Origin: an uncultured Fidelibacterota bacterium
Lineage (GTDB): Bacteria; Fidelibacterota; Marinisomatia; Marinisomatales; UBA1611
Reading direction: 5' to 3'
DNA length: 64,000 nucleotides
Assembly (NCBI GenBank): GCA_902562835.1
Contig: CACEUX010000008.1
Span: 3,726 to 67,725 of the forward strand
Below, in pieces: positions 3,346 to 47,901 of the stretch. Each line of letters begins with the position of its first letter. Positions within the stretch are counted from its first letter, which is position 1. The position numbers and the translations under genes were made by a program. Under the pieces are notes generated by a model that worked only from the letters and a program-made list of their open reading frames with translations, was not told the origin of the DNA and made no database searches.

Positions 3346-4665
3346 ATGAAACCATTCATACGGATGCGCAAAGTTCTTCTATATCTGACTTTCTTATCCT
3401 TTGTTTTTGCAAAGGAACCATATGCTTACCTCTATCTTTTACCATTTGATAATATACAAAATGATCCGGCTGTGGAGTGGATAGCCACTGGTTTGAGTGA
3501 TATGGCTCGTGAAGAGATGAAAAATATTTATGGTGTCAGGATCAAAACAAAAGAAGATCTGGAGACGATCATGAACGATCGTTCGCTTATGTTAAAGCAG
3601 CCAAGAGGGTCTCGCAATCTTTTAGTCCTCGGTAAGTACAATCGACAACTGGATAAGGTCCACGTTACCATTCAGGTAATAGATGTTGCAAACTGGGAAG
3701 AACTTGCAAAGTCTCAGCTCACTGAGGTTTATACCCAAGTCCCAGCACTGAATAAAGCAGTTGGTTCATCTGTCCATCAAATGGTCAAACCCTTTTTGCC
3801 AACTCAGCCCAAAGTTGCGATATCCCCGTTCCCAAAGTATACTGAAAAGACTGTTGTTAAAAAAAGAAGCCCTGTATCTATACAGGCAGAAAAAGTTGCC
3901 TCCAGTCTAGATCAGCAGATCGCTGAATTAGAATCATCCATGGAATTTCTTTTAGGGGCCAAGGCTCGAGACAGAGAGAGGCCGAAAAAAGATATCTCTC
4001 GATTTGATTCTGGAGAGTGGACCATGGATTTTGATGTTGATCGCAAGATGGAAGAGAACCCCGAAAATGCTGGTAATACTCAACTGTTATCGGGCGTGTT
4101 GGACCAACTACTGACCAACCCTTATGAAGTGGAATTACAGCGCCCAGAGTTTGATTATCATGAGGATGATGAATTGTATATGACCGTCCGTTTTCCTGTC
4201 ATATACCGACTGAAAGATAAAATATTAAAGGATATGTTATCTGGGCTGCCGTATACGGGCATAGAGCAAGATGGCACACTGACAATTTTCTATTTTGATA
4301 GAACCAAATTCAATTTTCCTAAGCATCATGTCGATGCGATAAAATCTGGTTCATATAGGATCATACCTGTGATGAGAATATTCGATAAAAATCGAAATAC
4401 TCTTATTCTTGTTGCAGATACACCTGAAGAATATTGGCATTCCAGAAATAGTAATAAAGTTCTTTATATCCCTCAGCATCAGTTTTCACCATTGATAGAT
4501 TTTTCTGTGGGTGGGTGGTCCATCCAAGTTGCTATGGAAACAGTAGAGATTCAAGCAGTATACGAATTTATCCTGCCTGTTTCTGAGCTTGAGTCACTCA
4601 GTAATGTTAGTCTAAAATTCATAAATGAAACTGATCTTAAAACATTTCTTGATCCTATTCTCTGA
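3346..4665 (+). CDS. Hypothetical secreted protein
   Basis: 439-aa ORF with a hydrophobic N-terminal signal-like segment (VLLYLTFLSFVFA). I recognise no family motif. Confidence 0.6.
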   Translation: MKPFIRMRKVLLYLTFLSFVFAKEPYAYLYLLPFDNIQNDPAVEWIATGLSDMAREEMKNIYGVRIKTKEDLETIMNDRSLMLKQPRGSRNLLVLGKYNRQLDKVHVTIQVIDVANWEELAKSQLTEVYTQVPALNKAVGSSVHQMVKPFLPTQPKVAISPFPKYTEKTVVKKRSPVSIQAEKVASSLDQQIAELESSMEFLLGAKARDRERPKKDISRFDSGEWTMDFDVDRKMEENPENAGNTQLLSGVLDQLLTNPYEVELQRPEFDYHEDDELYMTVRFPVIYRLKDKILKDMLSGLPYTGIEQDGTLTIFYFDRTKFNFPKHHVDAIKSGSYRIIPVMRIFDKNRNTLILVADTPEEYWHSRNSNKVLYIPQHQFSPLIDFSVGGWSIQVAMETVEIQAVYEFILPVSELESLSNVSLKFINETDLKTFLDPIL

Positions 4666-4700: not shown

Positions 4701-5831
4701 ATGAAAAAAACACTTTTTATTATTTTAACCACACTTTCATTTGGGCAAAGACTCGATGAAATAGATATAGCATTAAATGAGCTAGAAACAATAGTTCAAA
4801 TGGCATCACGGTCATCCCAGAAAGTATTTGTAGAAGATTTCACTGGTCTTCAGTGACCATACTGTCCCTCTGCGAGTTTCGCAATATCACAGATGCTTGA
4901 TGATTATCCAGAGACATTAATGAGCATCGAATGGCATAATTCAAGTTTCACCCCTGGAAATTCAGATTTTGATATTCCAGAATATAGTTCTAGAGCCTCT
5001 ATGTATGGAGTGGGCGGTATCCCACACACTCAGTGGAATGGCGTACAAGAAACGGTTGGAGGCTATCCAAATGGTAACTGGGAACAGTTCATAGGAACTT
5101 TCACAGCACTATACAATAATATGGTTGGGAATGATACCCCTTATGAAGTGAGTATAAATGGCTATGCTGGTTTGGAGGTAAGCTACGAAGTAGCAGTTTC
5201 AATGGATTCTGATATGAGTAGCTCTAACCAAAAAGTTGATATATTTGTAGCCGAAGATAACATATGGTCTTATTGGACAGGTGCGAGCCAGTATCATAAT
5301 GCAAGAAATGTAGCAAGGGATTGGTTAGCTACAGAGGATCTGACAATTAGCTCAGAAGGTGAATCACAAATATTTTCAGGTAGTTTTGATCTTGATGAGG
5401 ATTGGAATTCAGACAGTGTAAAGATCATTGCAATTGTTCAAAACTATTCTTCAAAACAGATCTATCAGGTCACTGCCGTAAATATAAATGATATGAATCC
5501 AGATATAGATGATGATGGTGTTTTGAATGGAGAAGACAATTGTATAGATATTTATAATCCAGGCCAGGAAGATAGTGATAGTGACCTCATAGGTGATCTT
5601 TGCGACCCTTGTGACAATTTAGTTTATATTGCTGGAAATATAAATGGTGATACAAATGATAATGGGATTCCAGTTATTGATATCATGGATGTTCTTTCTT
5701 TAGTGGATTATTTGTTGTTTGATGATTCATACGCTTGTCAAGACCCTTCAATGAATTTTAATAATGATGAATTTGTTAATGTCGTTGATGTTATAGCATT
5801 GGTCCAATACATTTTGGGCGGAAATAACTAG
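4701..5831 (+). CDS. Selenocysteine-containing secreted thioredoxin-fold protein (family A, copy 1) with C-terminal TSP3 repeats and dockerin-like module
   Basis: ATG 4701 (MKKTLFIILTTLSFGQ signal) is in frame with the listed ORF 4893..5831, with no other stop between them. The only interruption is TGA 4854-4856 inside VEDFTGLQ-U-PYC-PSASFAI, a UxxC redox motif. A cis-Pro-like GGIPHTQWNG lies downstream. The C-terminus has DIDDDGVLNGEDNC..NPGQEDSDSD..CDPCDN (TSP3) and two Asp/Asn-rich dockerin-like segments. Confidence 0.82.
4854..4883 (+). promoter_or_regulatory. UGA(Sec) plus putative bacterial SECIS hairpin (copy A1)
   Basis: The hairpin TGCGA-GTT-TCGCA (4871-4883) starts 17 nt from the U of the UGA. 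Spacing matches copies A2 and A3. The closing pair is U-A here and C-G in the other two copies, a compensatory change. Confidence 0.6.
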
Positions 5832-5843: not shown

Positions 5844-6371
5844 ATGGAGAGAATACATAGATCTACTTTTTATCTCTTTATACTAACAAATTTTATATTT
5901 GCTGACAGTAGTGATATTGGAAATACCATACCAGATCTCAAGATACGATTACTTGATGGTACAACCAAAACTATACATGAACTCGTTGATGATGGTCCTC
6001 TTATGATCGATTTTTGGGCTACATGGTGTGTGCCGTGTAAAAAGCTAATGAGATACCTAGACCAGTATCATCAGGATTATTCTAAGGATGGTTTTAAGGT
6101 GCTGATGATCAATACGGATACTCCTAGATCAATGGGTAAAGTAAAGTCATATGTAAGAGCTCAGGATTATAAATTCTATATTGGAATGGATCCTAATAAA
6201 ACGATCTCAAAGAAATTAAATGGGATGGTTATGCCCACTATGATACTTGTGGATAAAGGCGGGGAAGTGAAATGGCGTCATCAAGGCTACATATCAGGCG
6301 AAGAAATTGAGGTGAACAATCAGATCAAACAACTTTTGGAGAATAATCTTGAAGAAACATTTGAAGGCTAA
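5844..6371 (+). CDS. TlpA/ResA-like periplasmic thiol-disulfide oxidoreductase (Cys form)
   Basis: 175 aa with an N-terminal signal peptide. It has the FWATWCVPCKK thioredoxin active site and MPTMILVD (cis-Pro). Size is typical of the TlpA/redoxin family. Confidence 0.85.
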   Translation: MERIHRSTFYLFILTNFIFADSSDIGNTIPDLKIRLLDGTTKTIHELVDDGPLMIDFWATWCVPCKKLMRYLDQYHQDYSKDGFKVLMINTDTPRSMGKVKSYVRAQDYKFYIGMDPNKTISKKLNGMVMPTMILVDKGGEVKWRHQGYISGEEIEVNNQIKQLLENNLEETFEG

Positions 6372-8325
6372 AATCTTAAAAGAAGCAATTGTACTTATCG
6401 TGTGTACATCATATGTATTTGCTAATCAAGTAGATATGAATGGAGCTGTGAATTCAAATTTTGGAAACAGCTACGGATTTTATGACTTCTCTGAAAATAT
6501 ACTTGATCTAAATATATTTTATAATGACCTTCAAGGTTGGATACAGTATGAATATTCAAATCCTCCTGATATTGGTTTTGGGAAAAATGATATAAGAAAA
6601 TTTAGGCTTGAATACTCAACGGGAGATTTTATCCTAAAATTGGGTGACCTCTATGAGTTCTGGGGGCGAGGTCTTCTCCTTAATCAGTTTGATGATCAGG
6701 TGACTAATTTTGATAATGGTACCAGAGGGATGTTGATCGAGTATGACAGTGGCTCTCTTTCTGCAAGTCATATGAACGGGAATTCAAGTATATGGAACAT
6801 GGGAGCAGATACAAGAACGCCGGAATACAATAATATTCATAGCATGATGGCAAATCGATTAGAGTACAACAGGGGTCTTATTACATTAGGTCTAACCCAG
6901 CTTAGGTCAAATGAGGAACATGATGTGAATTTTGGTCCATCTGTTTTTGTCAGCCATGACCTTAAAGGTGCCTATGCTACATGGGCAAGCGGGAATGCAG
7001 ATCTTTTTGTAGAATATGTAGATAAAGTGTCAACGGAAAAAGTAACTATGTTTGGCACCATACCTAATGATACTTTGCTGAAAGGGCACGGCTACTATCA
7101 AAACTTTAATTTCTATTTTGGTAATTGGGGCATCTCAACTGAATACAAGCGGTATGCTTTTGATAGAGCATATGGTGATATAACTTCTGATGATTATGGT
7201 AACCAGATAGAATACCAGCAGATGCCAACACTTGGGAAGGAACATAATTCCACGTTGCTTGGTCGGCTGACACACAATTACAACTTCAATGACGAAAGAG
7301 GGGCGCAAGTTGAGGTGAATGGATCACTTCTTGGACTATCTATAACAGCCCAATACGCACATCTCAGTCGAAATGAAACATGGCAATCAGTTGGGTCATT
7401 TGAATGGACAGATAAGGCTATTGAGGGCTTTCTACCAAGTTCAGATATATCTGCTTTACCATATTGGGAAAATTACCAGGAAGTCAGTGGGTACGCATTC
7501 AATGATAAGTTCTATTTCAAACTTGGTAGGGGCTCAAATAAAGAAGTTTTAAAGACCATACGATATTTTGAAGGTACTCAGGTTGATATTTCATCTGTAG
7601 ATACTTCATTAACATGGGTCTATGATACACTCGTATGGAATGACGAGACATATTTTGATTCAACAGAAGTCGAACTTTATGATACCAATTATACATCGCC
7701 GTTTAATGTTGAGTCCAAGTTATGGCAAGAAAGTAAAGCTTTTACCATACCTCTGGAAGTGAACTATATTTTTGATAATGGATATACGCTCGGCCTGGGT
7801 TTTCAATACCAAGAGAGAGAAAAGGTAAATAGGTCAAAGGGTAATGCGACAACATTTAATGCCAGTGACTCATCATGGACGATGTACGACCCTGATGATT
7901 ATTCAAATACATATGATGAGACCGTAAGCCAACTTGCAAATCCAGATGGCGCTGTCAAAACACAATATAATCGGCTAGTTTATCTCTCCATAAGTAAAGC
8001 TCCTAAATGGTCTTTTACCATTACCCATGATATGACTAATGCATATGAAGCAAGCTCTCCATATGACCCATACTATAATCCACTTGAAGCATTGATCTCT
8101 GGTGATCTAAAATACTTCACAGGAAAGAGGAACAATATTGAACCACCCAGCTGGATACAAAATCGTTGGGTCTCCGTGGAGTTTGCCTATAATATCACAT
8201 CATCGCAAAGACTTTCAATTATGTATGGCTCAATCCAAGGCGGACTCTTTTGCAGTAATGGTGTTTGCAGACTTATACCCCCATTTAATGATGGGGTTAA
8301 GATCAGTTACAGTGCGAGTTTCTAA
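6349..8325 (+). CDS. Putative large outer-membrane beta-barrel protein (paralog 1)
   Basis: 658 aa with a signal-like N-terminus. Aromatic/Gly-rich alternating strands run throughout and the terminal residue is Phe (..KISYSASF), an OMP signature. It overlaps the TlpA gene end by 23 nt. The start (TTG 6349 or TTG 6361) is uncertain. Confidence 0.65.
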   Translation: MKKHLKAKILKEAIVLIVCTSYVFANQVDMNGAVNSNFGNSYGFYDFSENILDLNIFYNDLQGWIQYEYSNPPDIGFGKNDIRKFRLEYSTGDFILKLGDLYEFWGRGLLLNQFDDQVTNFDNGTRGMLIEYDSGSLSASHMNGNSSIWNMGADTRTPEYNNIHSMMANRLEYNRGLITLGLTQLRSNEEHDVNFGPSVFVSHDLKGAYATWASGNADLFVEYVDKVSTEKVTMFGTIPNDTLLKGHGYYQNFNFYFGNWGISTEYKRYAFDRAYGDITSDDYGNQIEYQQMPTLGKEHNSTLLGRLTHNYNFNDERGAQVEVNGSLLGLSITAQYAHLSRNETWQSVGSFEWTDKAIEGFLPSSDISALPYWENYQEVSGYAFNDKFYFKLGRGSNKEVLKTIRYFEGTQVDISSVDTSLTWVYDTLVWNDETYFDSTEVELYDTNYTSPFNVESKLWQESKAFTIPLEVNYIFDNGYTLGLGFQYQEREKVNRSKGNATTFNASDSSWTMYDPDDYSNTYDETVSQLANPDGAVKTQYNRLVYLSISKAPKWSFTITHDMTNAYEASSPYDPYYNPLEALISGDLKYFTGKRNNIEPPSWIQNRWVSVEFAYNITSSQRLSIMYGSIQGGLFCSNGVCRLIPPFNDGVKISYSASF

Positions 8326-8399: not shown

Positions 8400-9575
8400 A
8401 TGAAAAACCTATATATAATACTACTGATATCATTACCCTTTGCTCAGCAACTGGATCCTGTTGATATGGCCGTTGAAGAATTAAGAACTATAGTTGAAGC
8501 TGCATCAAGATCAAGTCAGCGTGTTTTTGTTGATGACTTTACAGGACTAAACTGACCATACTGTCCATCCGCGAGTTTCGCGATTTCAGAAATGTTAGAT
8601 GAGTTTCCTGGAACCCTAATCAGCACTGAGTGGCACTCAGCGGGCTATACGCCAGGAGATTCTGACTTTGAAGAGTGTTATTATTATGACAACTTTGGAG
8701 GCTGTTATGGTGCAAGAGCTAGTCTTTATGGCGTAGGAGGCATCCCACACACAGAATGGAATGGTATATATGACCTGACAGGAGGTTGGGCTAATGGTAA
8801 TTGGGAACCAGCGTATAATTATTTTATTGGGTTCTATAATGACCTGATTGGAACTGAAACCCCCTACGAGATCATTATCAATGGAATAAAAGATGGCTCA
8901 ACAGTTAATTATGAGATTACTGTTTCTATGGATGATGACTATTCTGTCCAGAACCAAAAAGTAGAAATAATAGTTGTAGAGGATAACATTATGTCATACT
9001 GGGCAGGTGCAAACCAAGACCATAATGCAAGGAATGTTGCAAGGTATTGGATAGGCACTGAAGACCTGACCATCAATTCAGCTGGGCAATCACAAACTTT
9101 TTCAGGATCATTTGAGATAGATGAAGAAGCATGGAACTCTGACAGTGTTAAAATTATTTCAATGGTTCAGAATTATGGGAATTATGAAGTATTTCAAGTT
9201 CAAGAGATAAATGTTAACGAATTTGATACGGATCAGGATGGCGTGGTAAATAATGAAGATAATTGTGAGGCAGACTATAACCCTGGGCAAGAAGATATAG
9301 ATGGAGATGGACTAGGCGATGCATGTGATCTCTGCGACAACACAAACATATACATACCTGGTAATGTCAGTGGTGATTATTGGTATTATGATACTAGTAG
9401 TCTAGAACCGACGGTAACTATTGATGTGTTTGACGTTTTAAAACTTTCGGAGATCATCGTATCAGGGGAAGAAGAGAGTTGTGGATATCAAGCCGGCGAT
9501 CTAACTGGAGATGGTGATGTTAATATAATTGATGTTATTGCACTTGCTTCGTTTATAATGGACGGCGCGTTCTAG
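8400..9575 (+). CDS. Selenocysteine-containing secreted thioredoxin-fold protein (family A, copy 2) with TSP3 and dockerin-like C-terminus
   Basis: ATG 8400 (MKNLYIILLISLPFAQQ) is in frame with ORF 8592..9575. The single in-frame TGA 8553-8555 sits in VDDFTGLN-U-PYC-PSASFAI. DTDQDGVVNNEDNC..NPGQEDIDGDGLGDACDLCDN is TSP3, and GDLTGDGDVNIIDVIALASFI is a dockerin-like repeat. Confidence 0.83.
8553..8582 (+). promoter_or_regulatory. UGA(Sec) plus putative bacterial SECIS hairpin (copy A2)
   Basis: The hairpin CGCGA-GTT-TCGCG (8570-8582) starts 17 nt from the UGA. It lies within a 36-nt block identical to copy A3. Confidence 0.6.
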
Positions 9576-9774: not shown

Positions 9775-10980
9775 ATGAAAAAAGCTCGTTCAATAGCACT
9801 TTCATTTATTACAATCACATTTATTTCTACATTCCTTCCTGCACAGGCACTTGATCACAGGCACATGGCGTTCGAGAATCTACGCATGTCTGTTATGAAT
9901 GCTTCTCAAAGTGGCCAAAATGTTTATGTTGAAGACTTTACAGGTCTTAACTGACCATACTGTCCATCCGCGAGTTTCGCGATTGATACACTTCTAAAAG
10001 AATTTCCAGGTACACTTCACTCAATTGAATGGCACAGTCCAGGTTACACTCCAGATTCTTCTGACTTTTGTCTCCAAACAGAGTTTTACATGAGAGCTGG
10101 TCTATACGGAGTTAGTGCTTACCCTACCACTGTATGGAATGGTGTGCATAATCAGGTGGGTGGAGCCAGTGGTGGGAACTGGGAATCCATATATCCTGGA
10201 TATTTAGAGTTATATCATGAGCATTATGACCTGCCATCTCAATTTCGTCTTGGCATATCAGGTGAATATGAGCCTGGAGATAATGAGGTCAATTTTAGTG
10301 TAGAGATACTAATTGACAACGATATTGATACTACTGTAAACATTGAGAATACCTATGTTGAAGTATTCGCTGTTGAAGATAATATTTATTCCTTCTGGGG
10401 AAGTGTTGGGCAGTGGCATAACGCCAGGAATGTAGCAAGAAGGTACGTCACAAAAAGTGAAGCCAATAAGAATCCAGTTTCGGTAAGCGAAGCGGGACAG
10501 TCAGAGATCTTTGAGCACAATTTACTCTTGTCAGATGCCTGGGAGCATTCAAATGTGAAAATAGTTGCTATTGTGCAACAATTTCAAGGTGAAGGATCTG
10601 ACCATCCCATTACTCAAGCTCAAACAAGAAATATAAATGATCTAGATCCTGATCCGGATGGTGATGAATTGACCTATCTTTATGATAACTGTCACTATGT
10701 ATACAATCCTGGGCAAGAAGATGCTGATGGAGACGAATATGGAGACGCCTGTGACGCATGTAATGGACTTGTAAATATTCAAGGGAATGTAGACCTTGAT
10801 GCTCATGGAGAAAATTTTACTCCGATCATTGGTGTGGCTGATGTTTTAGCATTATCTGATCTTCTTGATGGTAGTGGTCTTCCTCCAAATGATTGCCAGT
10901 CTATAGATATGCTTGAAGATGGAACGATAAATAACTTCGACCTGATAGTATTGGTAGATGTGGTAATGGCAGGAGGCTAG
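9775..10980 (+). CDS. Selenocysteine-containing secreted thioredoxin-fold protein (family A, copy 3) with TSP3 and dockerin-like C-terminus
   Basis: ATG 9775 is preceded by AAGAGG (SD-like) and opens a signal peptide, MKKARSIALSFITITFISTFLPAQA. ORF 9751..9954 and ORF 10090..10980 share a frame and are joined by stop-free sequence after TGA 9952-9954, in VEDFTGLN-U-PYC-PSASFAI. SAYPTTVWNG is cis-Pro-like. DPDPDGDE..NPGQEDADGDEYGDACDACNG is TSP3. Confidence 0.83.
9952..9981 (+). promoter_or_regulatory. UGA(Sec) plus putative bacterial SECIS hairpin (copy A3)
   Basis: The hairpin CGCGA-GTT-TCGCG (9969-9981) starts 17 nt from the UGA. Confidence 0.6.
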
Positions 10981-11058: not shown

Positions 11059-12003
11059 ATGAAAGTTATTTTGTTCTATTTCCTTCGTTTACTTTTAATT
11101 ACTTCTTTTGCAGTAATGCCTATTCAGGCTCAACTCCAAGTTGGAGATATTTCCCCTGATTTTAGTGGTCCAATGTGTATGAATGGAGAAGATGTTAACC
11201 CTGATATTGTAACAGGTGATTACTGGAGTTTATTCGAGGAAGGAGATGGAAAGGTTACATGGATAAACTTATTCACTTCATGGTGACCATCCTGTCAGGT
11301 GGAGGCTCCACAAACAGAAAGTATATGGCAGGACTTCTTAGCAGAAAATGAAAATTATCTTAATATAGTTGCCAATGGCTTTGACTGGACATCTTACACG
11401 TGTGCAGGGTGGGCCTCAGCATTTGGAATTACATATCCTATGATAGATGGTGGATCAAGTGGTGGGGAAGCTTGGAATCTTTTTGGAGATGGTTATATTC
11501 CTCACAATGTTGTTCTAGATCATAACCACGAGGTGCTTTACACATCCTCAGGATATAGTGAAGGTGCGATCATGGCTGCTATAGAACTTGGATTATCATA
11601 TGTTCCAAGAGATGAAGATGGAGATGGGATCATGGATAGTACTGATAATTGTATTGATGTTCCTAATGATGACCAATTAGACCATGATTTGGATGGTCTT
11701 GGCGATGCTTGTGACCTTTGCAACAACTTAGAAATATATGTTACTGGTAATATAGATGGGTCTGTTGGTATGACCGATCATAATCCAACCATAGATCTGT
11801 TTGATATACTTCGTTTGTCCGATATTGTCCTCTTGGGTGTAGATGAGGGCTGTGGCTATGAGATCAGTGATATTAGAGAAGATGGAGTTATAAACATTCT
11901 TGATATTATTACATTGGTACAGTACGTCCTCTATGGTGAATTGCCTGATGAGAATACAATCGCTATACCACCTAACGCATATCTCTTATCTGAAAATAAT
12001 TGA
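11059..12003 (+). CDS. Selenocysteine-containing TlpA-like thioredoxin-fold secreted protein (family B, copy 1) with TSP3 and dockerin-like C-terminus
   Basis: ORF 11059..11286 (signal peptide, ..WINLFTSW) and ORF 11299..12003 are in the same frame. They are separated only by TGA 11284-11286, which gives W-U-PSC-QVEAP. This aligns with WCxPC..E.P of TlpA-type redoxins. YIPHNVVLD is cis-Pro-like. DEDGDGIMDSTDNC..DHDLDGLGDACDLCNN is TSP3, and a dockerin-like tail follows. Confidence 0.82.
11284..11311 (+). promoter_or_regulatory. UGA(Sec) plus putative SECIS hairpin (copy B1)
   Basis: The hairpin GTGGA-GGC-TCCAC (11299-11311) starts 15 nt from the UGA. Confidence 0.55.
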
Positions 12004-12138: not shown

Positions 12139-15100
12139 ATGCTGAATAATAAGAAACATCTGTACAAAAGCATCATCACCCTAATGGCCTTTTCTTGTTT
12201 TATTTTTGGTCAAACCGATTTCTCATTCAAAAATATATCAGTCAAGGATGGGCTTGCTGAGAGTACTGTTAAAGTAATTTATGAAGACCAGAATGGTTTC
12301 ATATACTTTGGCACAGAAAACGGCCTCGATGTTTTTGATGGCTATGAGTTTACAAATTATCAAATGAACTCATTCAATGAATTATCAATTCTTGGCAATA
12401 AGATCTCAACCATTTATGAAGATGCCAGTCATATGATCTGGGTTGGCACTGAATTAGGCGTCAGTAAGTTTGATCCATCGAAAAGAGAATTTTCAAGGCC
12501 TATTAAACTTGATGGGGCAGACCTAATTAATTCTGAAACTATTATTGACGACGGTCAAGGTAACATTTATATCAAATTGAGAGATGATGGTTTAGTTTAT
12601 CAGTACAATGGTGTTGATAGTGTATTGACATGTTTTAATTGTTCAGATGAATCAGTCATAAATGATGAGATGGTTACCGTTTTAAGTAAAGATTCTAAGG
12701 GTACTATCTTAATTGGAACCAATACTGGCCTACGCTACTATGATATCAAGTCAAATCGAATTATCAAAGTAGGTGTTGAAGCTGGATTAGATGATATATC
12801 TGTGAATGCCATAGAGCGCGGAGCCAAAAATGATATTTGGGTTGGAACCTCAAATGGTCTATTCAAATTAAATGGTGGTCTAGGTGGTAGTATAGATGTT
12901 TATAGAAAAAATGAACAAAGTACATCAATAGTTTCAAATTATGTTAAAGATCTGGATTGGGATGTAGAGAGAAATGAACTATGGATAGCAACCCAAAATG
13001 GTATTTCTCGTTACATACCTTCAGAGTCAAGTTTTTTTAATATCCAGATGACACCATATGCAGACAGTATAATAGAAAATGATATATCTGAAATACTTAT
13101 TGCAGTTAAATCAGGTCGTTTATGGTATACTACTGAAAATCATTCTGGGCTGAATTGTTTATCGGTGGGAGAGGATTTCGATTCTGAAGGTCCACCTCCG
13201 GCAAACCATTTTGAGCATGACCCCATTGATAAAGGATCCATAGCGGATAATGAGATCAATGATTTTATTGAAGACAAAGCTGGTCATGTTTGGATAGGTA
13301 CGGGACAAAATGGTATCAGTTTCTTTTCCTATGTTAAACCAAAGTTTGTGAACCATAGATATGATCAGGAGAATGAATGGGGTTTAAAGAGTGACAAGAT
13401 ATATTCTATCACTACGCAGAGTGACGGCATGATGTGGGTAGCTACTGGTTTTGGTCTTGAAAAAATTTCATATGATGGTATCAGGGACCAAGAGTATGAA
13501 AAGTCTCTCCTAAATGTCAACTATATAATTGACCTTGAGATCATAAATGATGTGATGTTGTGGGTAGCGACAGATCAAGGCATACTAAAGATCGATACTT
13601 GGAACGATTATGATGCTGAAAATATTATTAGGTTTTCGGAATCAGATAGCCTTCCGCCATCAAGACGAATATCAAATAATCTAGTTCATGATATTTTGCC
13701 CATTGAAGATAAGATCTGGGTTGCCACAGGATCTGGTATGGTGATAATTGATACAACAACTAATAGTGTCACAGATTTTAATTCAGATCTGATCGCAAGA
13801 GTTATTTCAAAGGACTCTAGTGGTAATATTTGGCTTGGAACGGAAATGGATGGACTTTTTAAGATTCCATACGAACTATTGGGCGATATTGAAAAGGGAG
13901 AAGATTTTGAGTTAGAGGGGCATATCTTTGATAAGGCTTTTACTAGTGGTATTTCTTCTTCCCAGATAACTTGTATTACGGAAGATAAAAATGGAGTGAT
14001 CTGGGTTGGTACTAACGGAGGCCTTAATAAGTATATCAGTGAAAAAGATAATTTTGAGCATTATTTTGTTCAAGATGGTCTGCCGAGTAACTATATAACA
14101 GGTGTGCTTGTTGATAAAACTAATGGGTTGTGGATCAGTTCAAAAAAAGGAATTTCATTTTATGACCAGGTTAATTCAACATTCACCAATTACAGTCTTA
14201 CAGATGGTATAGGTAATATTGATTTTCATAGGCATAGCTATGATCAAAGTGCAGATGGAAGTATATTTTTTGGTGGGCCAATGGGCATAACATTGGTCAA
14301 TCCGGCAGAATTACAATTCAATGATTATCAACCACCCTGTTTGATTACTAGACTTAAGAAAACCTATTTTGATGATTCAGTAAAAGAAATATACTCATTC
14401 GATGATTCCGATGGCTCCAATGGGGGAGAGAGTATTTCAACCATAGTGATCGATCATAGAGTAAAATCATTTAGTATTGATTTTGTGGCTCTCAACTATC
14501 ATCAAACTGTAAAAAACCAATACAGGTATAAGTTAGAGCCATTTGATAGGGACTGGGTATCATCTCAAGGGTTACGTTTTGCATCGTATAATAATCTTGG
14601 AAGAAGTACTTATAATTTTATGGTTCAAGGCTCTAACGATGATGGGGTATGGTCCGCACCTGCAAAGTTAGATATCAAATTTACGCCACATCCTCTTTTA
14701 AGTATTTGGGCTTTCTCTTTCTATTCAGTCCTTTTGATCATTGGTATATTTATTTTCATGCGTCACCGTATGCATAAACAAAAATATCAACTAGAGGAAG
14801 AACGACGCATTCAAGAGCTCGAGCAAGCGAGAGATTTTCAAATGTCCTTGATACCGCAAAGCCCACCAGATCACCCTGACTATGATATTGCACTGCATAT
14901 GAAAACATCAACGGAAGTCGGTGGGGATTATTATGACTTTTTTCCACAAGAAGATGGCTCTATGTATGTTGTGTGTGGTGACGCAACTGGCCATGGTTTA
15001 AATGCTGGAATGATGGTCTCTATCACAAAAGCAGGACTCTATGGGTCGGACTTTGACACACCTTCAAGTACAACCACACGTCTGAATAGAACTATTAAGG

Positions 15101-15519
15101 CAATCGATCTTGGTACAACTCGGATGTCTTTAAATATGGCAAAATTTAATAACGGGTCTTTTGATTTCACATCAGCAGGAATGCCCCCGGCATATCTATA
15201 TAAACACTCTACAAAAGATGTAAATGAAATACTTGTTCCGGGGCTTCCATTGGGTTCAATGAAAAAAGCAGATTTTGATTTACATTCTTTTGATCTTGAT
15301 ACAAACGATGCTCTTGTTTTGATCTCTGATGGACTTCCAGAGTGTGTAAACCATGAGGGTGAGATGCTAGACTATGAGCCGGTTAAGGATTGTATTACAG
15401 CAAATGGAAATAAAACAGCACAGGGTATTATTGATTCTCTGATCGATCTTGGCGATGACTGGATGTCGGGTTTAATGAATGATGATGATATTACTCTTGT
15501 GGTAATAAAGAAAAAGTAA
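12139..15519 (+). CDS. Sensor protein: periplasmic two-component-regulator beta-propeller repeats, one TM segment, cytoplasmic PP2C/SpoIIE-type phosphatase
   Basis: 1126 aa. Many repeats of the ..G.IW.GT..GL..(F/Y).. type are typical of regulator propeller domains. A hydrophobic segment (WAFSFYSVLLIIGIFIF) follows. The C-terminus has GGDYYDFF...GDATGHGLNAGMM...DDITLVVI, matching SpoIIE/PP2C motifs. Confidence 0.8.
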   Translation: MLNNKKHLYKSIITLMAFSCFIFGQTDFSFKNISVKDGLAESTVKVIYEDQNGFIYFGTENGLDVFDGYEFTNYQMNSFNELSILGNKISTIYEDASHMIWVGTELGVSKFDPSKREFSRPIKLDGADLINSETIIDDGQGNIYIKLRDDGLVYQYNGVDSVLTCFNCSDESVINDEMVTVLSKDSKGTILIGTNTGLRYYDIKSNRIIKVGVEAGLDDISVNAIERGAKNDIWVGTSNGLFKLNGGLGGSIDVYRKNEQSTSIVSNYVKDLDWDVERNELWIATQNGISRYIPSESSFFNIQMTPYADSIIENDISEILIAVKSGRLWYTTENHSGLNCLSVGEDFDSEGPPPANHFEHDPIDKGSIADNEINDFIEDKAGHVWIGTGQNGISFFSYVKPKFVNHRYDQENEWGLKSDKIYSITTQSDGMMWVATGFGLEKISYDGIRDQEYEKSLLNVNYIIDLEIINDVMLWVATDQGILKIDTWNDYDAENIIRFSESDSLPPSRRISNNLVHDILPIEDKIWVATGSGMVIIDTTTNSVTDFNSDLIARVISKDSSGNIWLGTEMDGLFKIPYELLGDIEKGEDFELEGHIFDKAFTSGISSSQITCITEDKNGVIWVGTNGGLNKYISEKDNFEHYFVQDGLPSNYITGVLVDKTNGLWISSKKGISFYDQVNSTFTNYSLTDGIGNIDFHRHSYDQSADGSIFFGGPMGITLVNPAELQFNDYQPPCLITRLKKTYFDDSVKEIYSFDDSDGSNGGESISTIVIDHRVKSFSIDFVALNYHQTVKNQYRYKLEPFDRDWVSSQGLRFASYNNLGRSTYNFMVQGSNDDGVWSAPAKLDIKFTPHPLLSIWAFSFYSVLLIIGIFIFMRHRMHKQKYQLEEERRIQELEQARDFQMSLIPQSPPDHPDYDIALHMKTSTEVGGDYYDFFPQEDGSMYVVCGDATGHGLNAGMMVSITKAGLYGSDFDTPSSTTTRLNRTIKAIDLGTTRMSLNMAKFNNGSFDFTSAGMPPAYLYKHSTKDVNEILVPGLPLGSMKKADFDLHSFDLDTNDALVLISDGLPECVNHEGEMLDYEPVKDCITANGNKTAQGIIDSLIDLGDDWMSGLMNDDDITLVVIKKK

Positions 15520-15570: not shown

Positions 15571-16107
15571 TTGCGTTGGTGTCCTCGTTTTTTATCAGCT
15601 CAAGATAAGGTACCGAACATAAGACTTAAAATGATAAACGGTAAATACGCAAAATTATACGATTTTCTCAAAGAAGGACCTATGATAATTGATTTCTGGG
15701 CAACCTGGTGCGAGCCATGCAAAAAGCAAATGCGCTATTTAGACCTTTTCTATAATCATTTTAAACCATCTGGGTTTAATGTCCTCACGGTTAATACTGA
15801 TTCACCAAAAAGTATGAGCAAGGTAAAGCCTTATATTCGTACAAAAGGTTTTGAATTCAATGTTGCCGTAGATCCAAATAGCCAGGTGAAAAAGAGACTC
15901 AAAGTACAGGAAATGCCTACAACGATAATTATTGATCAGGATGGTTCAATATTGTATCGTCACAAGGGCTATGTTCCAGGCGATGAAGTTGGTATTCTAA
16001 AGGCTGTAACTGATATCCTTGATAAAAAAGGTATAGAATATCTACCTCTAGACCTCGATAAAGTCCAAGCAGTAAAGAAACAAGAGAAACTTAATATTGA
16101 TTTTTAG
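15571..16107 (+). CDS. TlpA-like thiol-disulfide oxidoreductase (Cys form), apparently frameshifted from its signal peptide
   Basis: FWATWCEPCKKQM active site and MPTTIIID cis-Pro. It is a close paralog of 19382..19960. As listed it has no signal peptide. A signal peptide (GTG 15549, MKRLIIIIALVSSF) lies in the neighbouring frame, across a T6 run at 15588-15593. Confidence 0.75.
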   Translation: MRWCPRFLSAQDKVPNIRLKMINGKYAKLYDFLKEGPMIIDFWATWCEPCKKQMRYLDLFYNHFKPSGFNVLTVNTDSPKSMSKVKPYIRTKGFEFNVAVDPNSQVKKRLKVQEMPTTIIIDQDGSILYRHKGYVPGDEVGILKAVTDILDKKGIEYLPLDLDKVQAVKKQEKLNIDF

Positions 16108-18507: not shown

Positions 18508-19374
18508 ATGAAGCAGCTCATTTCAATATTGATAATACCATTCTTTCTTAGTATTTCACCACTTGATGGTCAAGATGTTTACATGGAAGATTTTAGTGTA
18601 CCTATATGTGAAAACGGTAATGGAGAAGATACTCTACACTTTTTTGAAGCATATAATGGTGCATATAACGATTGTGGTTACAAGGTGATATTTGCCACTC
18701 TTTTTACCTCCTGGTGAGGATACTGCTGGGGGGAGGCTCCCCTCACACAGCAGTTATACGACACATATAATGACCAAGGCCTTGAAGTGGTTGCATTTGG
18801 AGCTGATTGGGGTGAGCCATATACTTGCCAACAGTGGATGAACTCATTTGATATTACATATCCCATTGCTGACTTTGAGACTGGCATGCCTAATTGGTAT
18901 CAAGAGGATATACCTATCAATCTACAGATGCATCAAATAGGTTGGGGCCTACCTTACAATATTATTATAGACCATAATATGGAGGTCATCTGGGGGGGCG
19001 TAAATGACATTGCTGAGGAAGAAGTATGGGAAGAGGCTGTTACAATGATAGAAAGTGCTCTGAATCATTTGAATGCGGAGGCACTCGTTGATAATGATGG
19101 GGATGGTATAGCTAATGAATGTGATGATTGCCCTGACTCACATCTATATACCTTAGGAAATTTTGATTTTTCAGAAGAAATCGTAGTTGATGGTCTTAAC
19201 TTTGTATATGCCCCTAGCATAGAAGTTTATGATCTACTTTTCCTTTCAGATCTAGTTAGCAGTGGTGATGAAATTTCACCATGTTATATTGAGGCGAGTG
19301 ATTTTACTGGTGATAATGCTCTGGATTTAATTGATATAATGGCTTTAGCTAGCTATATAGTAGAGGGTAATTAG
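18508..19374 (+). CDS. Selenocysteine-containing TlpA-like thioredoxin-fold secreted protein (family B, copy 2)
   Basis: ORF 18508..18717 (signal peptide, ..ATLFTSW) and ORF 18787..19374 are in frame. TGA 18715-18717 gives W-U-GYC-WGEAP, with stop-free sequence between the two ORFs. GLPYNIIID is cis-Pro-like. DNDGDGIANECDDCPD is a TSP3-like repeat, followed by a dockerin-like tail. Confidence 0.8.
18715..18744 (+). promoter_or_regulatory. UGA(Sec) plus putative SECIS hairpin (copy B2)
   Basis: GGGGA-GGC-TCCCC core (18730-18742), extendable to 18728-18744 with one G-U pair. The offset from the UGA is 15 nt, as in copy B1. Confidence 0.55.
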
Positions 19375-19381: not shown

Positions 19382-19960
19382 ATGACCATTAAGGCTCGAT
19401 ATGATATGCTTAGAAAGATATTTTTTTTTACAATGCTCTTTACATTGGCATATTCGCAAGGCAAGGTTCCAAATGTACGTCTAAAAATGTTAGATGGTAG
19501 CTCAGCCAAACTTTATGATTACCTCAAAGATGGGCCTATGATCATTGACTTTTGGGCAACTTGGTGTGAGCCATGTAAAAAACAGATGCATCATCTAAAT
19601 AAATTTCACCAGCATTTCAAAGATGCTGGATTTAAGGTTCTTACTGTTAATACTGATACTCCAAAAAGTATGGGCAAGGTGAAATCATATATAAGGTCAA
19701 AGAAATTCAAATTTTTTGTAGCTGTAGATCCTAATGGTCAAGTAAAGAAAAAATTAAAAGCAGAGCTCATGCCGACTACGATCTTAGTTGATACGGATGG
19801 CTCGGTGCTTTATCGTCATCAGGGGTATTACCCAGGAGATGAAGATAAAATATTAAAACATATCACGGACTATTTTGATGCAGCAGAAATAAGCTATGAC
19901 CCATACGATACTGAAAAGAAAAAACAGACAGCTAAAAAGCAAGTAGATATAGATTTTTAG
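19382..19960 (+). CDS. TlpA-like periplasmic thiol-disulfide oxidoreductase (Cys form)
   Basis: 192 aa with signal peptide (IFFFTMLFTLAYSQG), FWATWCEPCKKQM and MPTTILVD. It starts 8 nt after the family B Sec gene. Confidence 0.85.
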   Translation: MTIKARYDMLRKIFFFTMLFTLAYSQGKVPNVRLKMLDGSSAKLYDYLKDGPMIIDFWATWCEPCKKQMHHLNKFHQHFKDAGFKVLTVNTDTPKSMGKVKSYIRSKKFKFFVAVDPNGQVKKKLKAELMPTTILVDTDGSVLYRHQGYYPGDEDKILKHITDYFDAAEISYDPYDTEKKKQTAKKQVDIDF

Positions 19961-21617: not shown

Positions 21618-22409
21618 GTGAAAATTAAACTAATCATCACATTATTTTTAATGACGCTTTCTAGTGCACAAGTTTATGATGTGGGCGATTTTGCACCATC
21701 CGATTTTGGACTTCCTTGGTGTGGTAATAACCCAGCTGGTGATGATAGTTTATTTTTGAGTGCATATAATGGAGCTATCAATGAAACAGGCCGTCCCTAT
21801 GTCATATGGTTGACTGCTTTTACAACTTGGTGAGGATATTGTTTGACGGAGGCTCCTGTCACTCAAGAATACTTTGATCTCTATGCTGATTCAGGATTAG
21901 TTGTGATTGGAATGGGAGGCGACTGGGGCCAACCTTACACCTGTGAAGGGTGGGTAGACAACTTCGGTTTAGGTTACCCTATAATATCTGATGAGGATAC
22001 CTACAATGAATATGAATATGGAGGTTTAGGAACTAATTTATTTACAGATACTTGGGTTCCATATAATATGATAATAGATCATACAATGGAGATAATCTAT
22101 TCGTCATCTGATTATTATGGTCAGGAAGGATATGACCTAATTTTCGATAAGCTCTTTGGCGCCTTAAATAAATGTACTCTATGCACCTGCTCAGAAGTTC
22201 TTGGAGACATTGACCATACATATACCATTGATAATGAACCTATCATTAATATAATGGATTTGTTAAGGCTCTCGGATCTTATTACAACGGATACGCGAAT
22301 GAACCATTGCGAGAGAGGGCAGGGAGATATTACTGGAGATGGTGTTTTGAATACGATCGATCTTTTTGCTTTTGCAACCATGATCTCAGAAGGTGTCTTT
22401 GATAACTAA
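21618..22409 (+). CDS. Selenocysteine-containing TlpA-like thioredoxin-fold secreted protein (family B, copy 3; dockerin-like tail only)
   Basis: ORF 21618..21833 (GTG start, signal peptide, ..LTAFTTW) and ORF 21843..22409 are in frame. TGA 21831-21833 gives W-U-GYC-LTEAP. WVPYNMIID is cis-Pro-like. The C-terminus GDITGDGVLNTIDLFAFATMI is dockerin-like. I see no TSP3 repeat. Confidence 0.78.
21831..21860 (+). promoter_or_regulatory. UGA(Sec) plus putative SECIS hairpin (copy B3)
   Basis: GGA-GGC-TCC core with a possible bulged U and outer GAC/GTC pairs (21845-21860). It is weaker than copies B1 and B2. Confidence 0.4.
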
Positions 22410-47136: not shown

Positions 47137-47901
47137 ATGTATATTTGGCCCATGCATAGGGCTAGCCAAAAACTCCTAAAATTCTCATTGTTTTCCCTCC
47201 TTATACTTTTTGCGACTGCAAATGGGCAAGCTCTATCTAATTTTTTAGGTCACTGGACTGGCTTAGAGTTGCTTGATTCACCTAATCTGACCTATGATAA
47301 TAGAAATATATCTTTAATCGTGAGTGAGGGTGGCGATAGGGATGGATTTCATATTTATACCTCATCCTGTGATTTTTTGTACAATGAAGATCTAGATTGG
47401 GCATACCATTACTTTGGTTTTGACAAAGAATATACTCAGGTTATTTTTCTTAGACGGTTCATAACCCCACTTGGTGTAATTGGCTATGAGGAATTGGTCT
47501 ATGACCTAACGGAATGGTCAGATCAATCATTTGTCGCTGAATATTTATCAGATGATGGGGGGACATATCATGAGATCAGAATGGATATTGATATTTTGAG
47601 ATCTCAAAGTCTGATTCCTTCTGTTGTAAAGCTTAGCCAAAATTTTCCAAACCCATTTAACCCAACAACAAGTATGTATGTGTCTGCAGACAAGGAATCT
47701 AGAGGTAGTCTAGTAATATTCAACCTTAAGGGTCAAGCTGTTCGCACTCTATACAAAGGGAGATTGGTAACAGGTATAACAAACTTTATATGGGATGGTA
47801 ATGACAATTCTGGTAGGCCAGTGAGCGGAGGAACATATATCTATCGCTTAATGCTAGATGGTGTCTCCAGCCAATCCCAAAAAATGATACTGCTCAAATA
47901 A
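47137..47901 (+). CDS. Hypothetical secreted protein with T9SS C-terminal sorting domain
   Basis: 254 aa with a signal-like N-terminus. The C-terminus is QNFPNPFNPTTSMYVS...GTYIYRL...KMILLK. Confidence 0.75.
   Translation: MYIWPMHRASQKLLKFSLFSLLILFATANGQALSNFLGHWTGLELLDSPNLTYDNRNISLIVSEGGDRDGFHIYTSSCDFLYNEDLDWAYHYFGFDKEYTQVIFLRRFITPLGVIGYEELVYDLTEWSDQSFVAEYLSDDGGTYHEIRMDIDILRSQSLIPSVVKLSQNFPNPFNPTTSMYVSADKESRGSLVIFNLKGQAVRTLYKGRLVTGITNFIWDGNDNSGRPVSGGTYIYRLMLDGVSSQSQKMILLK

What the first reader, a model, noticed from the sequence alone, without database searches (positions are those of the whole stretch)
5499..5828. Thrombospondin type-3 repeats plus dockerin-like double EF-hand module on redox enzymes
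Five of the six selenoproteins end with D.D.DG..N.(E/T)DNC..-YNPGQED.D.D..GD.CD.C(D/N)N, the TSP3 Ca-binding repeat pattern. This is followed by two segments of the form GD.N.DG..N..D...L...(I/L), a dockerin-like pattern. Approximate coordinates are 5499-5828, 9220-9572, 10645-10977, 11611-11940 and 19090-19371; copy 5 has only a partial TSP3 unit. Dockerins normally tether glycoside hydrolases to cohesin scaffolds. Their fusion to UxxC oxidoreductases implies a Ca-dependent docking partner. No obvious cohesin gene is visible in this window.
Basis: partly seen in the sequence, partly recalled or inferred. Interest (0 to 1): 0.65.

Follow-up and report, generated by a model that had tools for sequence, protein, structure and literature searches.

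The report
Calcium-binding docking tail on marine selenoproteins
Six exported selenium-containing redox enzymes of an uncultured marine bacterium (SAR406/Marinimicrobia) end in a conserved calcium-binding module folded like the dockerin "plugs" of cellulosomes; in related genomes that module is followed by a cohesin-like "socket" domain and a surface-secretion signal, which suggests an undescribed way of tethering redox enzymes to the cell envelope.

Summary
Five + strand genes with an in-frame TGA in a U-x-x-C motif end in one thrombospondin type-3 (TSP3) unit followed by a dockerin-like module.

- **Pfam:** its own cut-offs are narrowly missed.
- **TSP3 part:** a profile of the tails hits COMP and thrombospondin T3 repeats at E 1e-33 to 1e-37.
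- **Dockerin part, sequence:** the profile hits about 20 solved dockerins (best E 6e-4). Its best matches among 1.8 billion proteins are genuine multi-Dockerin_1 proteins.
- **Dockerin part, structure:** the AlphaFold model's top 23 PDB matches are all dockerins.
- **Atypical feature:** the first Ca loop carries a 7-14 residue insertion.

The organism is a Marinimicrobia (SAR406) MAG relative. NCBIfam already curates the family (NF045500, Omp28-related selenoprotein, tail included). I found no paper describing the tail.

In relatives, "long forms" continue in frame into a beta-sandwich and then a T9SS sorting domain. That sandwich's top 11 PDB fold matches are all cohesins, though TM-scores are only 0.36-0.48. 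The triad held in 33 of 33 loci.

The tail is therefore not a sorting signal. It is most likely a Ca-dependent docking module, and binding remains untested.

The parts
4701..5831 (+). P1, an Omp28-related selenoprotein. It has a signal peptide, a Sec TGA at 4854 (FTGLQ-U-PYC), a thioredoxin-like plus Omp28-like body, and the tail.
   Evidence: NCBIfam NF045500 at 587 bits, covering residues 2-372 against model positions 1-376 of 377. Translation; TGA and hairpin.
5499..5618 (+). P1 TSP3 unit (DIDDDGVLNGEDNC...YNPGQEDSDSDLIGDLCDPCDN).
   Evidence: COMP and TSP-2 repeats, per-repeat i-E down to 8e-9. (NF047638 throspo3_MtsC, 1e-7).
5619..5828 (+). P1 dockerin-like module: two helices, each preceded by a Ca-type loop. 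The first loop carries a 7-residue insertion.
   Evidence: A2 profile at 92.9 bits. AlphaFold model with pLDDT 71 and helices at 68-80 and 101-112. Top 23 PDB fold matches are all dockerins.
8400..9575 (+). P2, an Omp28-related selenoprotein (Sec TGA at 8553). Tail spans 9210-9569: TSP3 9225-9341, dockerin-like 9342-9569.
   Evidence: NF045500 at 514 bits. Pfam Dockerin_1 at 22.4 bits against a cut-off of 22.9. Also.
9775..10980 (+). P3, an Omp28-related selenoprotein (Sec TGA at 9952). Tail spans 10630-10977; dockerin-like part 10768-10977.
   Evidence: NF045500 at 468 bits. Also.
11059..12003 (+). P4, a redoxin/ResA-like selenoprotein (LFTSW-U-PSC, TGA at 11284). Tail spans 11602-11940 (dockerin-like 11731-11940), followed by a 21-residue extension. 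It is the ortholog of long forms that continue into a cohesin-like domain and a T9SS CTD.
   Evidence: Alignment to the 495-residue long form at L001 13602-15089.
18508..19374 (+). P5, a redoxin-like selenoprotein (LFTSW-U-GYC, TGA at 18715). It has a half TSP3 unit (19039-19140) and a dockerin-like module (19141-19371).
21651..22409 (+). P6, the sixth selenoprotein (AFTTW-U-GYC, TGA at 21831; start codon uncertain). It carries a dockerin-like module at 22167-22394 with no TSP3 unit.
   Evidence: A2 profile at 42 bits, i-E 2.4e-14. Translation. NF045500 tail part, model positions 314-375.
5844..6371 (+). TlpA/ResA-like CxxC thioredoxin (WCVPC), a cassette partner. Paralogues lie at 15571-16107 and 19382-19960.
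   Evidence: Pfam Redoxin at 75.8 bits. NCBIfam ResA/TlpA hits. Same order in relatives.
6349..8325 (+). DUF6029 protein, a putative outer-membrane barrel and cassette partner. A paralogue lies at 16097-18385.
   Evidence: Pfam PF19494 at 81 and 83 bits. Syntenic in L001-L003.

Best explanation
The tail is a composite, calcium-stabilised protein module specific to Marinimicrobia cell-envelope redox proteins. It consists of one thrombospondin type-3 unit followed directly by a divergent type-I-like dockerin. The dockerin has two EF-hand-type loops each followed by a helix; the first loop is expanded by a 7-14 residue hairpin, and a conserved Cys sits in the inter-helix linker.

The six selenoproteins are exported through the Sec pathway (signal peptides read by eye). 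They lack a T9SS sorting domain, so they should stay in the periplasm or cell envelope unless carried further.

**Inferred function.** The dockerin acts as a Ca-dependent plug that tethers these thiol oxidoreductases into an envelope assembly. The most likely socket is the cohesin-like beta-sandwich that follows the dockerin in T9SS-anchored "long forms" of the same two enzyme families in related genomes. This window, and its nearest relatives at this locus, carry only short forms, so the socket must be encoded elsewhere in the genome or be a different protein.

**Shown:**
- sequence and fold identity of the tail;
- its conservation;
- the dockerin / cohesin-like / CTD triad in relatives.

**Inferred:**
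- Ca binding;
- the docking function;
- the identity of the partner;
- localisation.
For: **TSP3 identity.**
- E 1e-33 to 1e-37 against COMP and thrombospondin-2.
- throspo3_MtsC hits down to 1e-11.
- homologue P0038 passes Pfam TSP_3 (36.6 bits against 25).

**Dockerin identity.**
- about 20 solved dockerins are hit, best E 6e-4.
- the tail profile's best hits among 1.84 billion proteins are multi-Dockerin_1 proteins. P0018 scores 220 bits and P0019 223 bits on PF00404.
- the model's top 23 PDB fold matches are all dockerins (TM by target up to 0.85), while calmodulin-type hits have probability below 0.1.
- the second loop keeps the ligand pattern at positions 1, 5, 9 and 12 in all six copies.

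**Under selection.** dN/dS against the closest genome (L004) is 0.05 for the TSP3 part and 0.09 for the dockerin part.

**Not a sorting signal.**
- In long forms the tail is internal and is followed by PF18962/TIGR04183.
- Four other proteins in the window carry ordinary T9SS CTDs.

**Candidate socket.**
- The domain after the dockerin is modelled at pLDDT 88 as an 8-9-strand sandwich.
- Its top 11 PDB matches are all cohesins, with E 2e-4 to 8e-3 and probability 0.99-1.0.
- It sits immediately after the dockerin and before the CTD in 8 of 8 genome and encoding-contig loci that have it, and in 25 of 25 metagenome loci found with the sandwich alone as query.
- Short, dockerin-only genes lie beside a long form in the same cluster in L001-3, L007, L008, L011, L013, L018, L022-23, L026-28 and L043.
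Against: - No binding, Ca or localisation data exist.
- Pfam's own Dockerin_1 and TSP_3 cut-offs are not reached by the window proteins.
- The cohesin-like call rests on a predicted structure only. TM-scores are low (0.36-0.48, rmsd 6-8 A), and there is no sequence-level similarity to cohesins in Pfam or PDB.
- The sandwich was never seen alone or in tandem, as scaffoldins would show. It could therefore be a family-specific spacer before the CTD, or an intramolecular clasp.
- The window and its nearest relatives (L004-L006) have no long form at this locus.
- Proteins without a CTD have no known route to a surface-exposed socket.
- The first Ca loop is non-canonical.
Confidence: 0.5

Rival explanations
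1. The tail is a Ca-binding structural stalk or envelope anchor with no protein socket. The TSP3 unit and the dockerin-like EF-hands would simply rigidify or space the enzyme. Alternatively they would bind envelope polymers (peptidoglycan or LPS via Ca bridges) or the adjacent DUF6029 barrel.
For: - Bacterial OmpA-family proteins use TSP3 repeats in the envelope; 5wtl is hit at E 1.8e-4.
- Most non-cellulosomal dockerin-like modules have no known partner (own knowledge; Peer et al. 2009, cited in PMC2930009).
- Each cassette pairs tail-bearing genes with a TlpA-like protein and a DUF6029 barrel.
- Barrel 2 itself carries six DxDGDGxWD repeats.
- The window's clade has no cohesin-like domain at the locus.
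Against: - The dockerin part evolves about three times faster than the catalytic body while remaining under purifying selection. That pattern is more typical of a recognition module than of a passive spacer.
- The strict dockerin / cohesin-like adjacency in 33 of 33 loci needs a separate explanation.
Confidence: 0.27
2. The dockerin pairs only in cis with the following cohesin-like sandwich, as an intramolecular clasp that stabilises or presents T9SS cargo. In short forms such as the six in this window, it would be a leftover of that arrangement with at most a stabilising role.
For: - The sandwich is found only directly after the dockerin, with a linker of about 1-10 residues, and never alone.
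- Window P4 is a truncated ortholog of a long form.
Against: - Short forms keep the module under purifying selection (dN/dS 0.05-0.09).
- Six paralogues in one genome retain the ligand positions at only 30-45% identity.
- Both enzyme families exist in short and long forms.
- A very short linker makes folding back onto the cohesin face sterically doubtful (inference).
Confidence: 0.15
3. The tail is a C-terminal sorting or secretion signal that is recognised and cleaved, by the T9SS or by another system.
For: - It lies at the extreme C-terminus in all six window proteins.
- The organism uses T9SS C-terminal signals: four CTD proteins are present in the window.
Against: - The tail is helical with a dockerin fold, not the beta-sandwich CTD.
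- It gives no Por_Secre_tail hit.
- In long forms it is internal, and a bona fide TIGR04183/PF18962 domain follows.
Confidence: 0.03

Closest known systems
Type I dockerin modules (Pfam PF00404) of clostridial and ruminococcal cellulosomes, e.g. 2vn5, 1daq, 2mte
   Same: - About 70 residues, with a duplicated loop-helix (F-hand) architecture.
- The second loop has Asp/Asn at positions 1, 5, 9 and 12.
- Profile hits to about 20 solved dockerins.
- The predicted fold superposes at TM 0.7-0.85.
- The tail profile retrieves Dockerin_1 proteins first.
   Different: - The Pfam gathering score is missed.
- The first loop has a 7-14 residue insertion.
- A conserved Cys sits in the linker.
- The module is always preceded by CDxC or a TSP3 unit.
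- The host is a Gram-negative marine phylum, and the cargo is selenoprotein oxidoreductases.
- No cohesin of Pfam type is present, and binding is untested.
Non-cellulosomal cohesin/dockerin pairs, e.g. Archaeoglobus fulgidus (2xdh) and Clostridium perfringens (2jh2, 2ozn)
   Same: - Dockerin-like and cohesin-like modules sit on proteins unrelated to cellulose degradation.
- As I recall for the A. fulgidus protein behind 2xdh, both modules can occur in one polypeptide (own knowledge).
- 2xdh and 2jh2 are among the best fold matches of the sandwich.
   Different: - Here the cohesin-like domain has no sequence similarity to cohesins, and TM-scores are only 0.36-0.48.
- It is sandwiched between a dockerin and a T9SS sorting domain.
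Thrombospondin/COMP type-3 repeats (PF02412) and bacterial TSP3-bearing envelope proteins (OmpA family 5wtl; MtsC NF047638)
   Same: The DxDxDGxxDxxDNC...NPxQxDxDxDGxGDxCDxC motif with its Cys pattern, supported at E 1e-33 to 1e-37 and 1e-8 to 1e-11.
   Different: - There is a single unit (half a unit in P5, none in P6), not a wire of 7 or more.
- It is fused directly to a dockerin.
NCBIfam NF045500 'Omp28-related selenoprotein'
   Same: P1, P2 and P3 match end to end at 587, 514 and 468 bits against a cut-off of 200. The tail corresponds to model positions about 256-376. The family, tail included, is therefore already curated.
   Different: - The model names neither the TSP3 nor the dockerin part.
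- P4-P6 belong to a different (redoxin-like) family and match only the tail part of the model.
- The long forms with a cohesin-like domain and CTD are not covered.
T9SS type A C-terminal sorting domain (TIGR04183/PF18962)
   Same: It is C-terminal, in the same phylum and the same gene clusters.
   Different: It has a different fold and sequence. It co-occurs with the tail in long forms rather than replacing it.

Membership tests
Thrombospondin type-3 repeat (PF02412) | Score at or above Pfam's gathering threshold (25 bits). | tested here: not met
   16.5 bits for P1 and 17.9 bits for P4. Homologue P0038 does pass, at 36.6 bits.
Thrombospondin type-3 repeat (PF02412) | Significant profile similarity to solved T3 repeats, including the Asp-rich Ca motifs and the Cys pattern. 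| tested here: met
   The profile of five tails hits 3fby at E 8.8e-37 and 1yo8/2rhp at 3e-33. Single repeats reach i-E 8e-9, with DNC and GDxCDxC aligned.
Dockerin type I (PF00404) | Score at or above Pfam's gathering threshold (22.9 bits). | tested here: not met
   Best score is 22.4 bits (P2); P4 scores 13.7 bits; the others give no hit.
Dockerin type I (PF00404) | Duplicated 22-residue segment, each a 12-residue Ca loop followed by a helix. | tested here: inconclusive
   The second segment is canonical in all six copies. The first has the start and end of the loop but a 7-14 residue insertion between them. Two main helices are predicted.
Dockerin type I (PF00404) | Dockerin three-dimensional fold. 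| tested here: met
   On a predicted model with pLDDT 71, the top 23 Foldseek PDB matches are all dockerins, with TM by target 0.61-0.85 (0.34-0.35 for two double-dockerin targets of about 140-150 residues).
Dockerin type I (PF00404) | Reciprocal sequence relationship to bona fide dockerins. | tested here: met
   The A2 profile's best hits in 1.84 billion proteins are multi-Dockerin_1 proteins. PDB dockerins are hit at E 6e-4.
Cohesin-dockerin system | Ca-dependent, high-affinity binding of the dockerin to a cohesin. | not testable with these tools
   This needs ITC or native PAGE, or at least multimer modelling. The structure jobs were exhausted.
Cohesin-dockerin system | A cohesin module encoded in the genome. 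| tested here: inconclusive
   - None is present in the window.
- Relatives have a sandwich whose top 11 fold matches are cohesins, but TM is 0.36-0.48 and there is no Pfam or PDB sequence hit.
- The rest of this genome was not available.
T9SS C-terminal sorting domain (TIGR04183/PF18962) | HMM match at the C-terminus. | tested here: not met
   None of the six window proteins gives a hit. Long-form relatives carry it after the tail.
NCBIfam NF045500 Omp28-related selenoprotein | Full-length match above the cut-off of 200 bits, with Sec in the U-x-x-C motif. | tested here: met
   P1 scores 587, P2 514 and P3 468 bits. P4-P6 match only the tail part (108, 39 and 36 bits) and are not members.
Bacterial selenoprotein | In-frame UGA aligned to Cys in homologues, a downstream SECIS-type hairpin, and Sec machinery. 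| tested here: inconclusive
   - The Cys alignment holds.
- Hairpins lie about 15-18 nt downstream of all six TGAs.
- No tRNA-Sec or sel genes occur in the window, and there is no Rfam SECIS hit.
- The machinery is presumably encoded elsewhere in the genome.

The most novel reading that the evidence does not exclude
SAR406 cells may build a cohesin-dockerin-type "redoxosome" on their envelope. T9SS-anchored long forms would display a cohesin-like socket. Dockerin-only selenoprotein oxidoreductases would plug into it in a Ca-dependent way, possibly binding in the periplasm and being carried out through the T9SS as passengers. This would be the first cohesin-dockerin-style assembly in a Gram-negative marine phylum, and the first used for thiol/selenol redox chemistry rather than polysaccharide breakdown.
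Probability: 0.15. Interest if true: 0.8.

Novelty: new variant of a known kind. Interest (0 to 1): 0.5.

Why it matters
Marinimicrobia (SAR406) are abundant, uncultured bacteria of the dark ocean, and their cell-surface biology is essentially unknown.

- **A testable model.** This work gives a concrete, testable architecture for how a multigene set of extracytoplasmic selenoprotein oxidoreductases may be organised. The proteins are paired with TlpA-like reductases and DUF6029 barrels.
- **Wider reach of dockerin-type modules.** It extends them to a new cargo class and secretion context (T9SS).
- **Annotation problem.** Gene callers cut almost every database copy of these proteins at the Sec codon: 312- or 277-residue fragments dominate. 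The U-x-x-C active site and the signal peptide are therefore lost from public annotation.
- **Tool potential.** If docking is confirmed, the compact tail and socket pair would also be a new orthogonal Ca-dependent affinity pair.

Tried and rejected
- **Pfam on the five proteins.** TSP_3 and Dockerin_1 fell only below threshold. I did not treat that as refutation, because profile and structure tests were positive.
- **Word-indexed protein search with the dockerin profile (A2).** It returned only 17 short fragments. With the sandwich profile (A3) it returned one fragment, which was uninformative.
- **Exact look-up of the window's GlnRS.** It is not on record.
- **Locus scans with broad alignments (A5, A3).** I replaced them with a single protein and a narrower alignment, A6.
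- **Sequence-level test of the sandwich against PDB and Pfam.** No cohesin or any other significant hit appeared. \"Cohesin-like\" therefore rests on fold alone.
- **Cohesin or sandwich copies in the window.** None were found, including in the 4306-residue adhesin and three other T9SS proteins.
- **Rfam and ARAGORN.** No SECIS family and no tRNA-Sec occur in the window.
- **Literature.** Nothing relevant on Omp28 plus selenoprotein, dockerin plus selenoprotein, or Marinimicrobia plus dockerin. Peer et al. 2009 was not retrievable.
- **Rejected hypotheses.** These are chance or low-complexity Asp-rich sequence, a T9SS or other sorting signal, and a decaying relic (dN/dS 0.05-0.09).
Full report
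**1. What is in the sequence**

Between 4.7 and 22.4 kb the + strand carries six genes interrupted by a single in-frame TGA.

| Gene | Coordinates | TGA | Active-site context | Body |
|---|---|---|---|---|
| P1 | 4701-5831 | 4854 | FTGL(Q/N)-TGA-PYCPSAS | thioredoxin-like plus Omp28-like |
| P2 | 8400-9575 | 8553 | FTGL(Q/N)-TGA-PYCPSAS | thioredoxin-like plus Omp28-like |
| P3 | 9775-10980 | 9952 | FTGL(Q/N)-TGA-PYCPSAS | thioredoxin-like plus Omp28-like |
| P4 | 11059-12003 | 11284 | F(T/A)(S/T)W-TGA-xxC | redoxin/ResA-like |
| P5 | 18508-19374 | 18715 | F(T/A)(S/T)W-TGA-xxC | redoxin/ResA-like |
| P6 | about 21651-22409 | 21831 | F(T/A)(S/T)W-TGA-xxC | redoxin/ResA-like |

Three results support reading the TGA as selenocysteine.
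- The TGA aligns with Cys in the Cys-homologues P0027, P0090, P0044 and P0079.
- A GC-rich hairpin lies about 15-18 nt downstream of each TGA.
- P1-P3 match NCBIfam NF045500 "Omp28-related selenoprotein" end to end, at 587, 514 and 468 bits against a cut-off of 200.

The Sec machinery itself is not in the window.

**2. The tail**

A profile built from them also detects a sixth copy of the dockerin-like half, at 22167-22394 at the end of P6.

*TSP3 half.*
- Pfam TSP_3 scores only 16.5 and 17.9 bits against a cut-off of 25.
- The tail profile hits COMP at E 8.8e-37 and thrombospondin-2 at 3e-33. Individual repeats reach i-E 8e-9, with the DNC and GDxCDxC cysteines aligned.
- It also hits a bacterial OmpA-family TSP3 protein, 5wtl, at 1.8e-4.
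- NCBIfam's MtsC TSP3 model gives 1e-8 to 1e-11.
- P1-P4 have one unit, P5 has half a unit, and P6 has none.

*Dockerin half.*
- Pfam Dockerin_1 reaches at best 22.4 bits against a cut-off of 22.9.
- The profile hits about 20 solved dockerins. The best are 2y3n_B, 2mte and 1daq at E 6-8e-4.
- Run against 1.84 billion representative proteins, the profile of the dockerin half alone gave 1993 hits. The top hits are proteins with 8-13 genuine Dockerin_1 repeats.
- The AlphaFold model of the P1 tail (pLDDT 71) has the expected helices.
- Its 23 best PDB fold matches are all dockerins, with TM by target up to 0.85 and rmsd 1.8-3 A. Calmodulin-type EF-hands score a probability below 0.1.

*Departures from the canonical module.*
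- The first Ca loop carries a 7-14 residue insertion, while the second loop is canonical.
- A Cys is conserved in the inter-helix linker.
- The module is almost always preceded by CDxC.

*Selection.* The tail is under purifying selection. Against the closest genome, dN/dS is 0.05 for the TSP3 part and 0.09 for the dockerin part, compared with 0.02 for the enzyme body. At the amino-acid level, however, the dockerin half diverges about three times faster than the body.

**3. Organism and context**

The closest genomes are Marinimicrobia/Neomarinimicrobiota (SAR406) MAGs, the nearest being TMED46 at 96%. Homologues are abundant in marine metagenomes, including mesopelagic TARA samples. Almost all are called as 312- or 277-residue fragments that begin after the TGA.

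The locus is syntenic in relatives. The gene order is:
1. GlnRS;
2. a 439-residue protein of unknown function;
3. tail-bearing selenoprotein(s);
4. a TlpA/ResA-like CxxC thioredoxin;
5. DUF6029;
6. a Reg_prop/Y_Y_Y/SpoIIE sensor;
7. a second TlpA-like thioredoxin;
8. a second DUF6029.

The cargo of the tail is overwhelmingly these two redox families. Rare exceptions include the amidohydrolase P0038 and P0037, which by eye looks like a phosphoesterase.

**4. The new element: long forms**

In many relatives the tail is not terminal. It continues in frame into a domain of about 125 residues with the motifs ISGFQF and LPxGW, and then into a T9SS type A sorting domain (PF18962/TIGR04183).

The intermediate domain has no Pfam or PDB sequence match. 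It is modelled with high confidence (pLDDT 88) as an 8-9-strand beta-sandwich. Its 11 best PDB fold matches are all cohesins: 2vn6_A, 2xdh, 2vn5, 2jh2, 5m0y_A, 2w1n, 2o4e and 2vo8. E-values are 2e-4 to 8e-3 and probabilities 0.99-1.0. TM-scores are only 0.36-0.48, so I call the domain cohesin-like rather than a cohesin.

The dockerin / sandwich / CTD order held in all 8 genome and encoding-contig loci that carry the sandwich. It also held in 25 of 25 metagenome loci retrieved with the sandwich alone as query. No stand-alone or tandem sandwich was seen, although that search reaches only fairly close relatives.

Dockerin-only genes commonly sit beside one long form in the same cluster. Window P4 is the ortholog of such a long form (L001 13602-15089, 495 residues) but stops 21 residues after the dockerin. 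The window, and loci L004-L006 of its clade, have only short forms at this locus. The window also has no sandwich and no Pfam cohesin, even in its four T9SS-CTD proteins.

**5. Interpretation**

The fold and family of the tail are established at the level available in silico.

A sorting-signal role is excluded in practice, because the tail is internal in long forms and a separate CTD follows it.

The best-supported mechanism is a Ca-stabilised docking module. Three observations point that way:
- the dockerin fold;
- retention under selection in six paralogues at 30-45% identity;
- obligatory adjacency to a cohesin-like sandwich in surface-anchored relatives.

The step from fold to docking, the identity of the socket, Ca binding, and the cellular location of the short forms are all inferences. 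The short forms have signal peptides, each with Gln after the predicted cleavage site (read by eye), and no CTD, so by default they should be periplasmic. Rivals are a partner-less Ca stalk or envelope anchor, and a purely intramolecular clasp.

**6. Comparison with what is known**

Dockerins on non-glycosidase cargo and non-cellulosomal cohesin/dockerin modules are already documented (PMC2930009, and Peer et al. 2009 cited there). NCBIfam already models the Omp28-type family with its tail.

I found no description of the following:
- the TSP3-dockerin composite;
- its use on selenoprotein oxidoreductases in Marinimicrobia;
- the dockerin / cohesin-like / T9SS-CTD triad.

I therefore rate this a new variant of a known kind, of moderate interest. 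It would rate higher if trans docking or co-export were demonstrated.

Noticed in passing
window 22167-22394 (gene about 21651-22409): A sixth selenoprotein (AFTTW-U-GYC, TGA at 21831) ends in the dockerin-like module without any TSP3 unit. It has CTLCTC in place of CDxC.
   Followed up: yes
L001 13602-15089; also L007, L008, L011, L013, L018, L022-L046: Long forms of both enzyme families continue after the dockerin into a cohesin-like beta-sandwich (motifs ISGFQF and LPxGW) and then a T9SS sorting domain. The order was invariant in 33 of 33 loci.
   Followed up: yes
window 11941-12003: P4 ends with a 21-residue extension (ELPDENTIAIPPNAYLLSENN) after the dockerin. The extension is conserved in database fragments P0001, P0002 and P0009. 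Its 'IPPNAYLL..N' resembles the first residues of T9SS CTDs in this window (compare IPNNFALHNPYPNPFNP at about 51663). It may be a remnant of a lost CTD.
   Followed up: partly
window 5844-8325, 15571-18385, 19382-19960: A repeated cassette: a TlpA/ResA-like CxxC thioredoxin whose stop overlaps the start of a DUF6029 protein (a 658- or 762-residue putative barrel). The overlaps are 23 and 11 nt. The third TlpA-like gene has no barrel after it. The pairing is conserved in relatives, and DUF6029 has no assigned function.
   Followed up: partly
window 17678-17980 (inside DUF6029 gene 16097-18385): Six tandem DxDGDGxWD-type Asp-rich repeats, spaced about 15 residues apart, are inserted in the second DUF6029 protein and absent from the first. 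They look like Ca-binding loops. They do not match the tail profiles (i-E 6).
   Followed up: partly
window 4854, 8553, 9952, 11284, 18715, 21831 and the 60 nt after each: Two types of SECIS-like hairpin follow the TGAs. P1-P3 have CGCGAGUUUCGCG, and P4-P6 have a stem closing a GAGGCUC-type loop. No Rfam family matches them, and no tRNA-Sec or sel genes are in the window.
   Followed up: partly
database homologues, e.g. P0164-P0282: Nearly all public copies of the P1 family are annotated as 312- or 277-residue fragments starting at the first Met after the Sec codon. One entry, P0165, reads the TGA as Trp. The signal peptide and active site are systematically missing from annotations.
   Followed up: partly
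window 4701-, 8400-, 9775-, 11059-, 18508-, about 21651-: All six signal peptides are followed by Gln at the predicted cleavage site (SFG|Q, PFA|Q, LPA|Q, IQA|Q, LDG|Q, SSA|Q). This is the pattern known as the Bacteroidetes 'Q-rule' (N-terminal pyroglutamate). It was read by eye and not run through a predictor.
   Followed up: no
window 23434-36354, 44403-47084, 47137-47901, 47940-51917: Four proteins carry T9SS C-terminal sorting domains. One is a 4306-residue protein with at least 9 Big_13 Ig-like repeats. Another is a 1325-residue M6-peptidase-like protein with an RTX repeat.
   Followed up: partly
window 12139-15519 and 20194-21474: A membrane sensor with Reg_prop beta-propellers, a Y_Y_Y domain and a SpoIIE/PP2C phosphatase sits in the middle of the selenoprotein cluster, syntenic in relatives. 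An adenylate/guanylate cyclase with a multi-pass membrane N-terminus follows tRNA-Arg. These are possible regulators of the cluster.
   Followed up: no
window 3346-4665: A 439-residue secreted protein with no Pfam or NCBIfam match lies between GlnRS and P1. A 439-residue gene also without Pfam hits sits at the same position in L001-L003.
   Followed up: no
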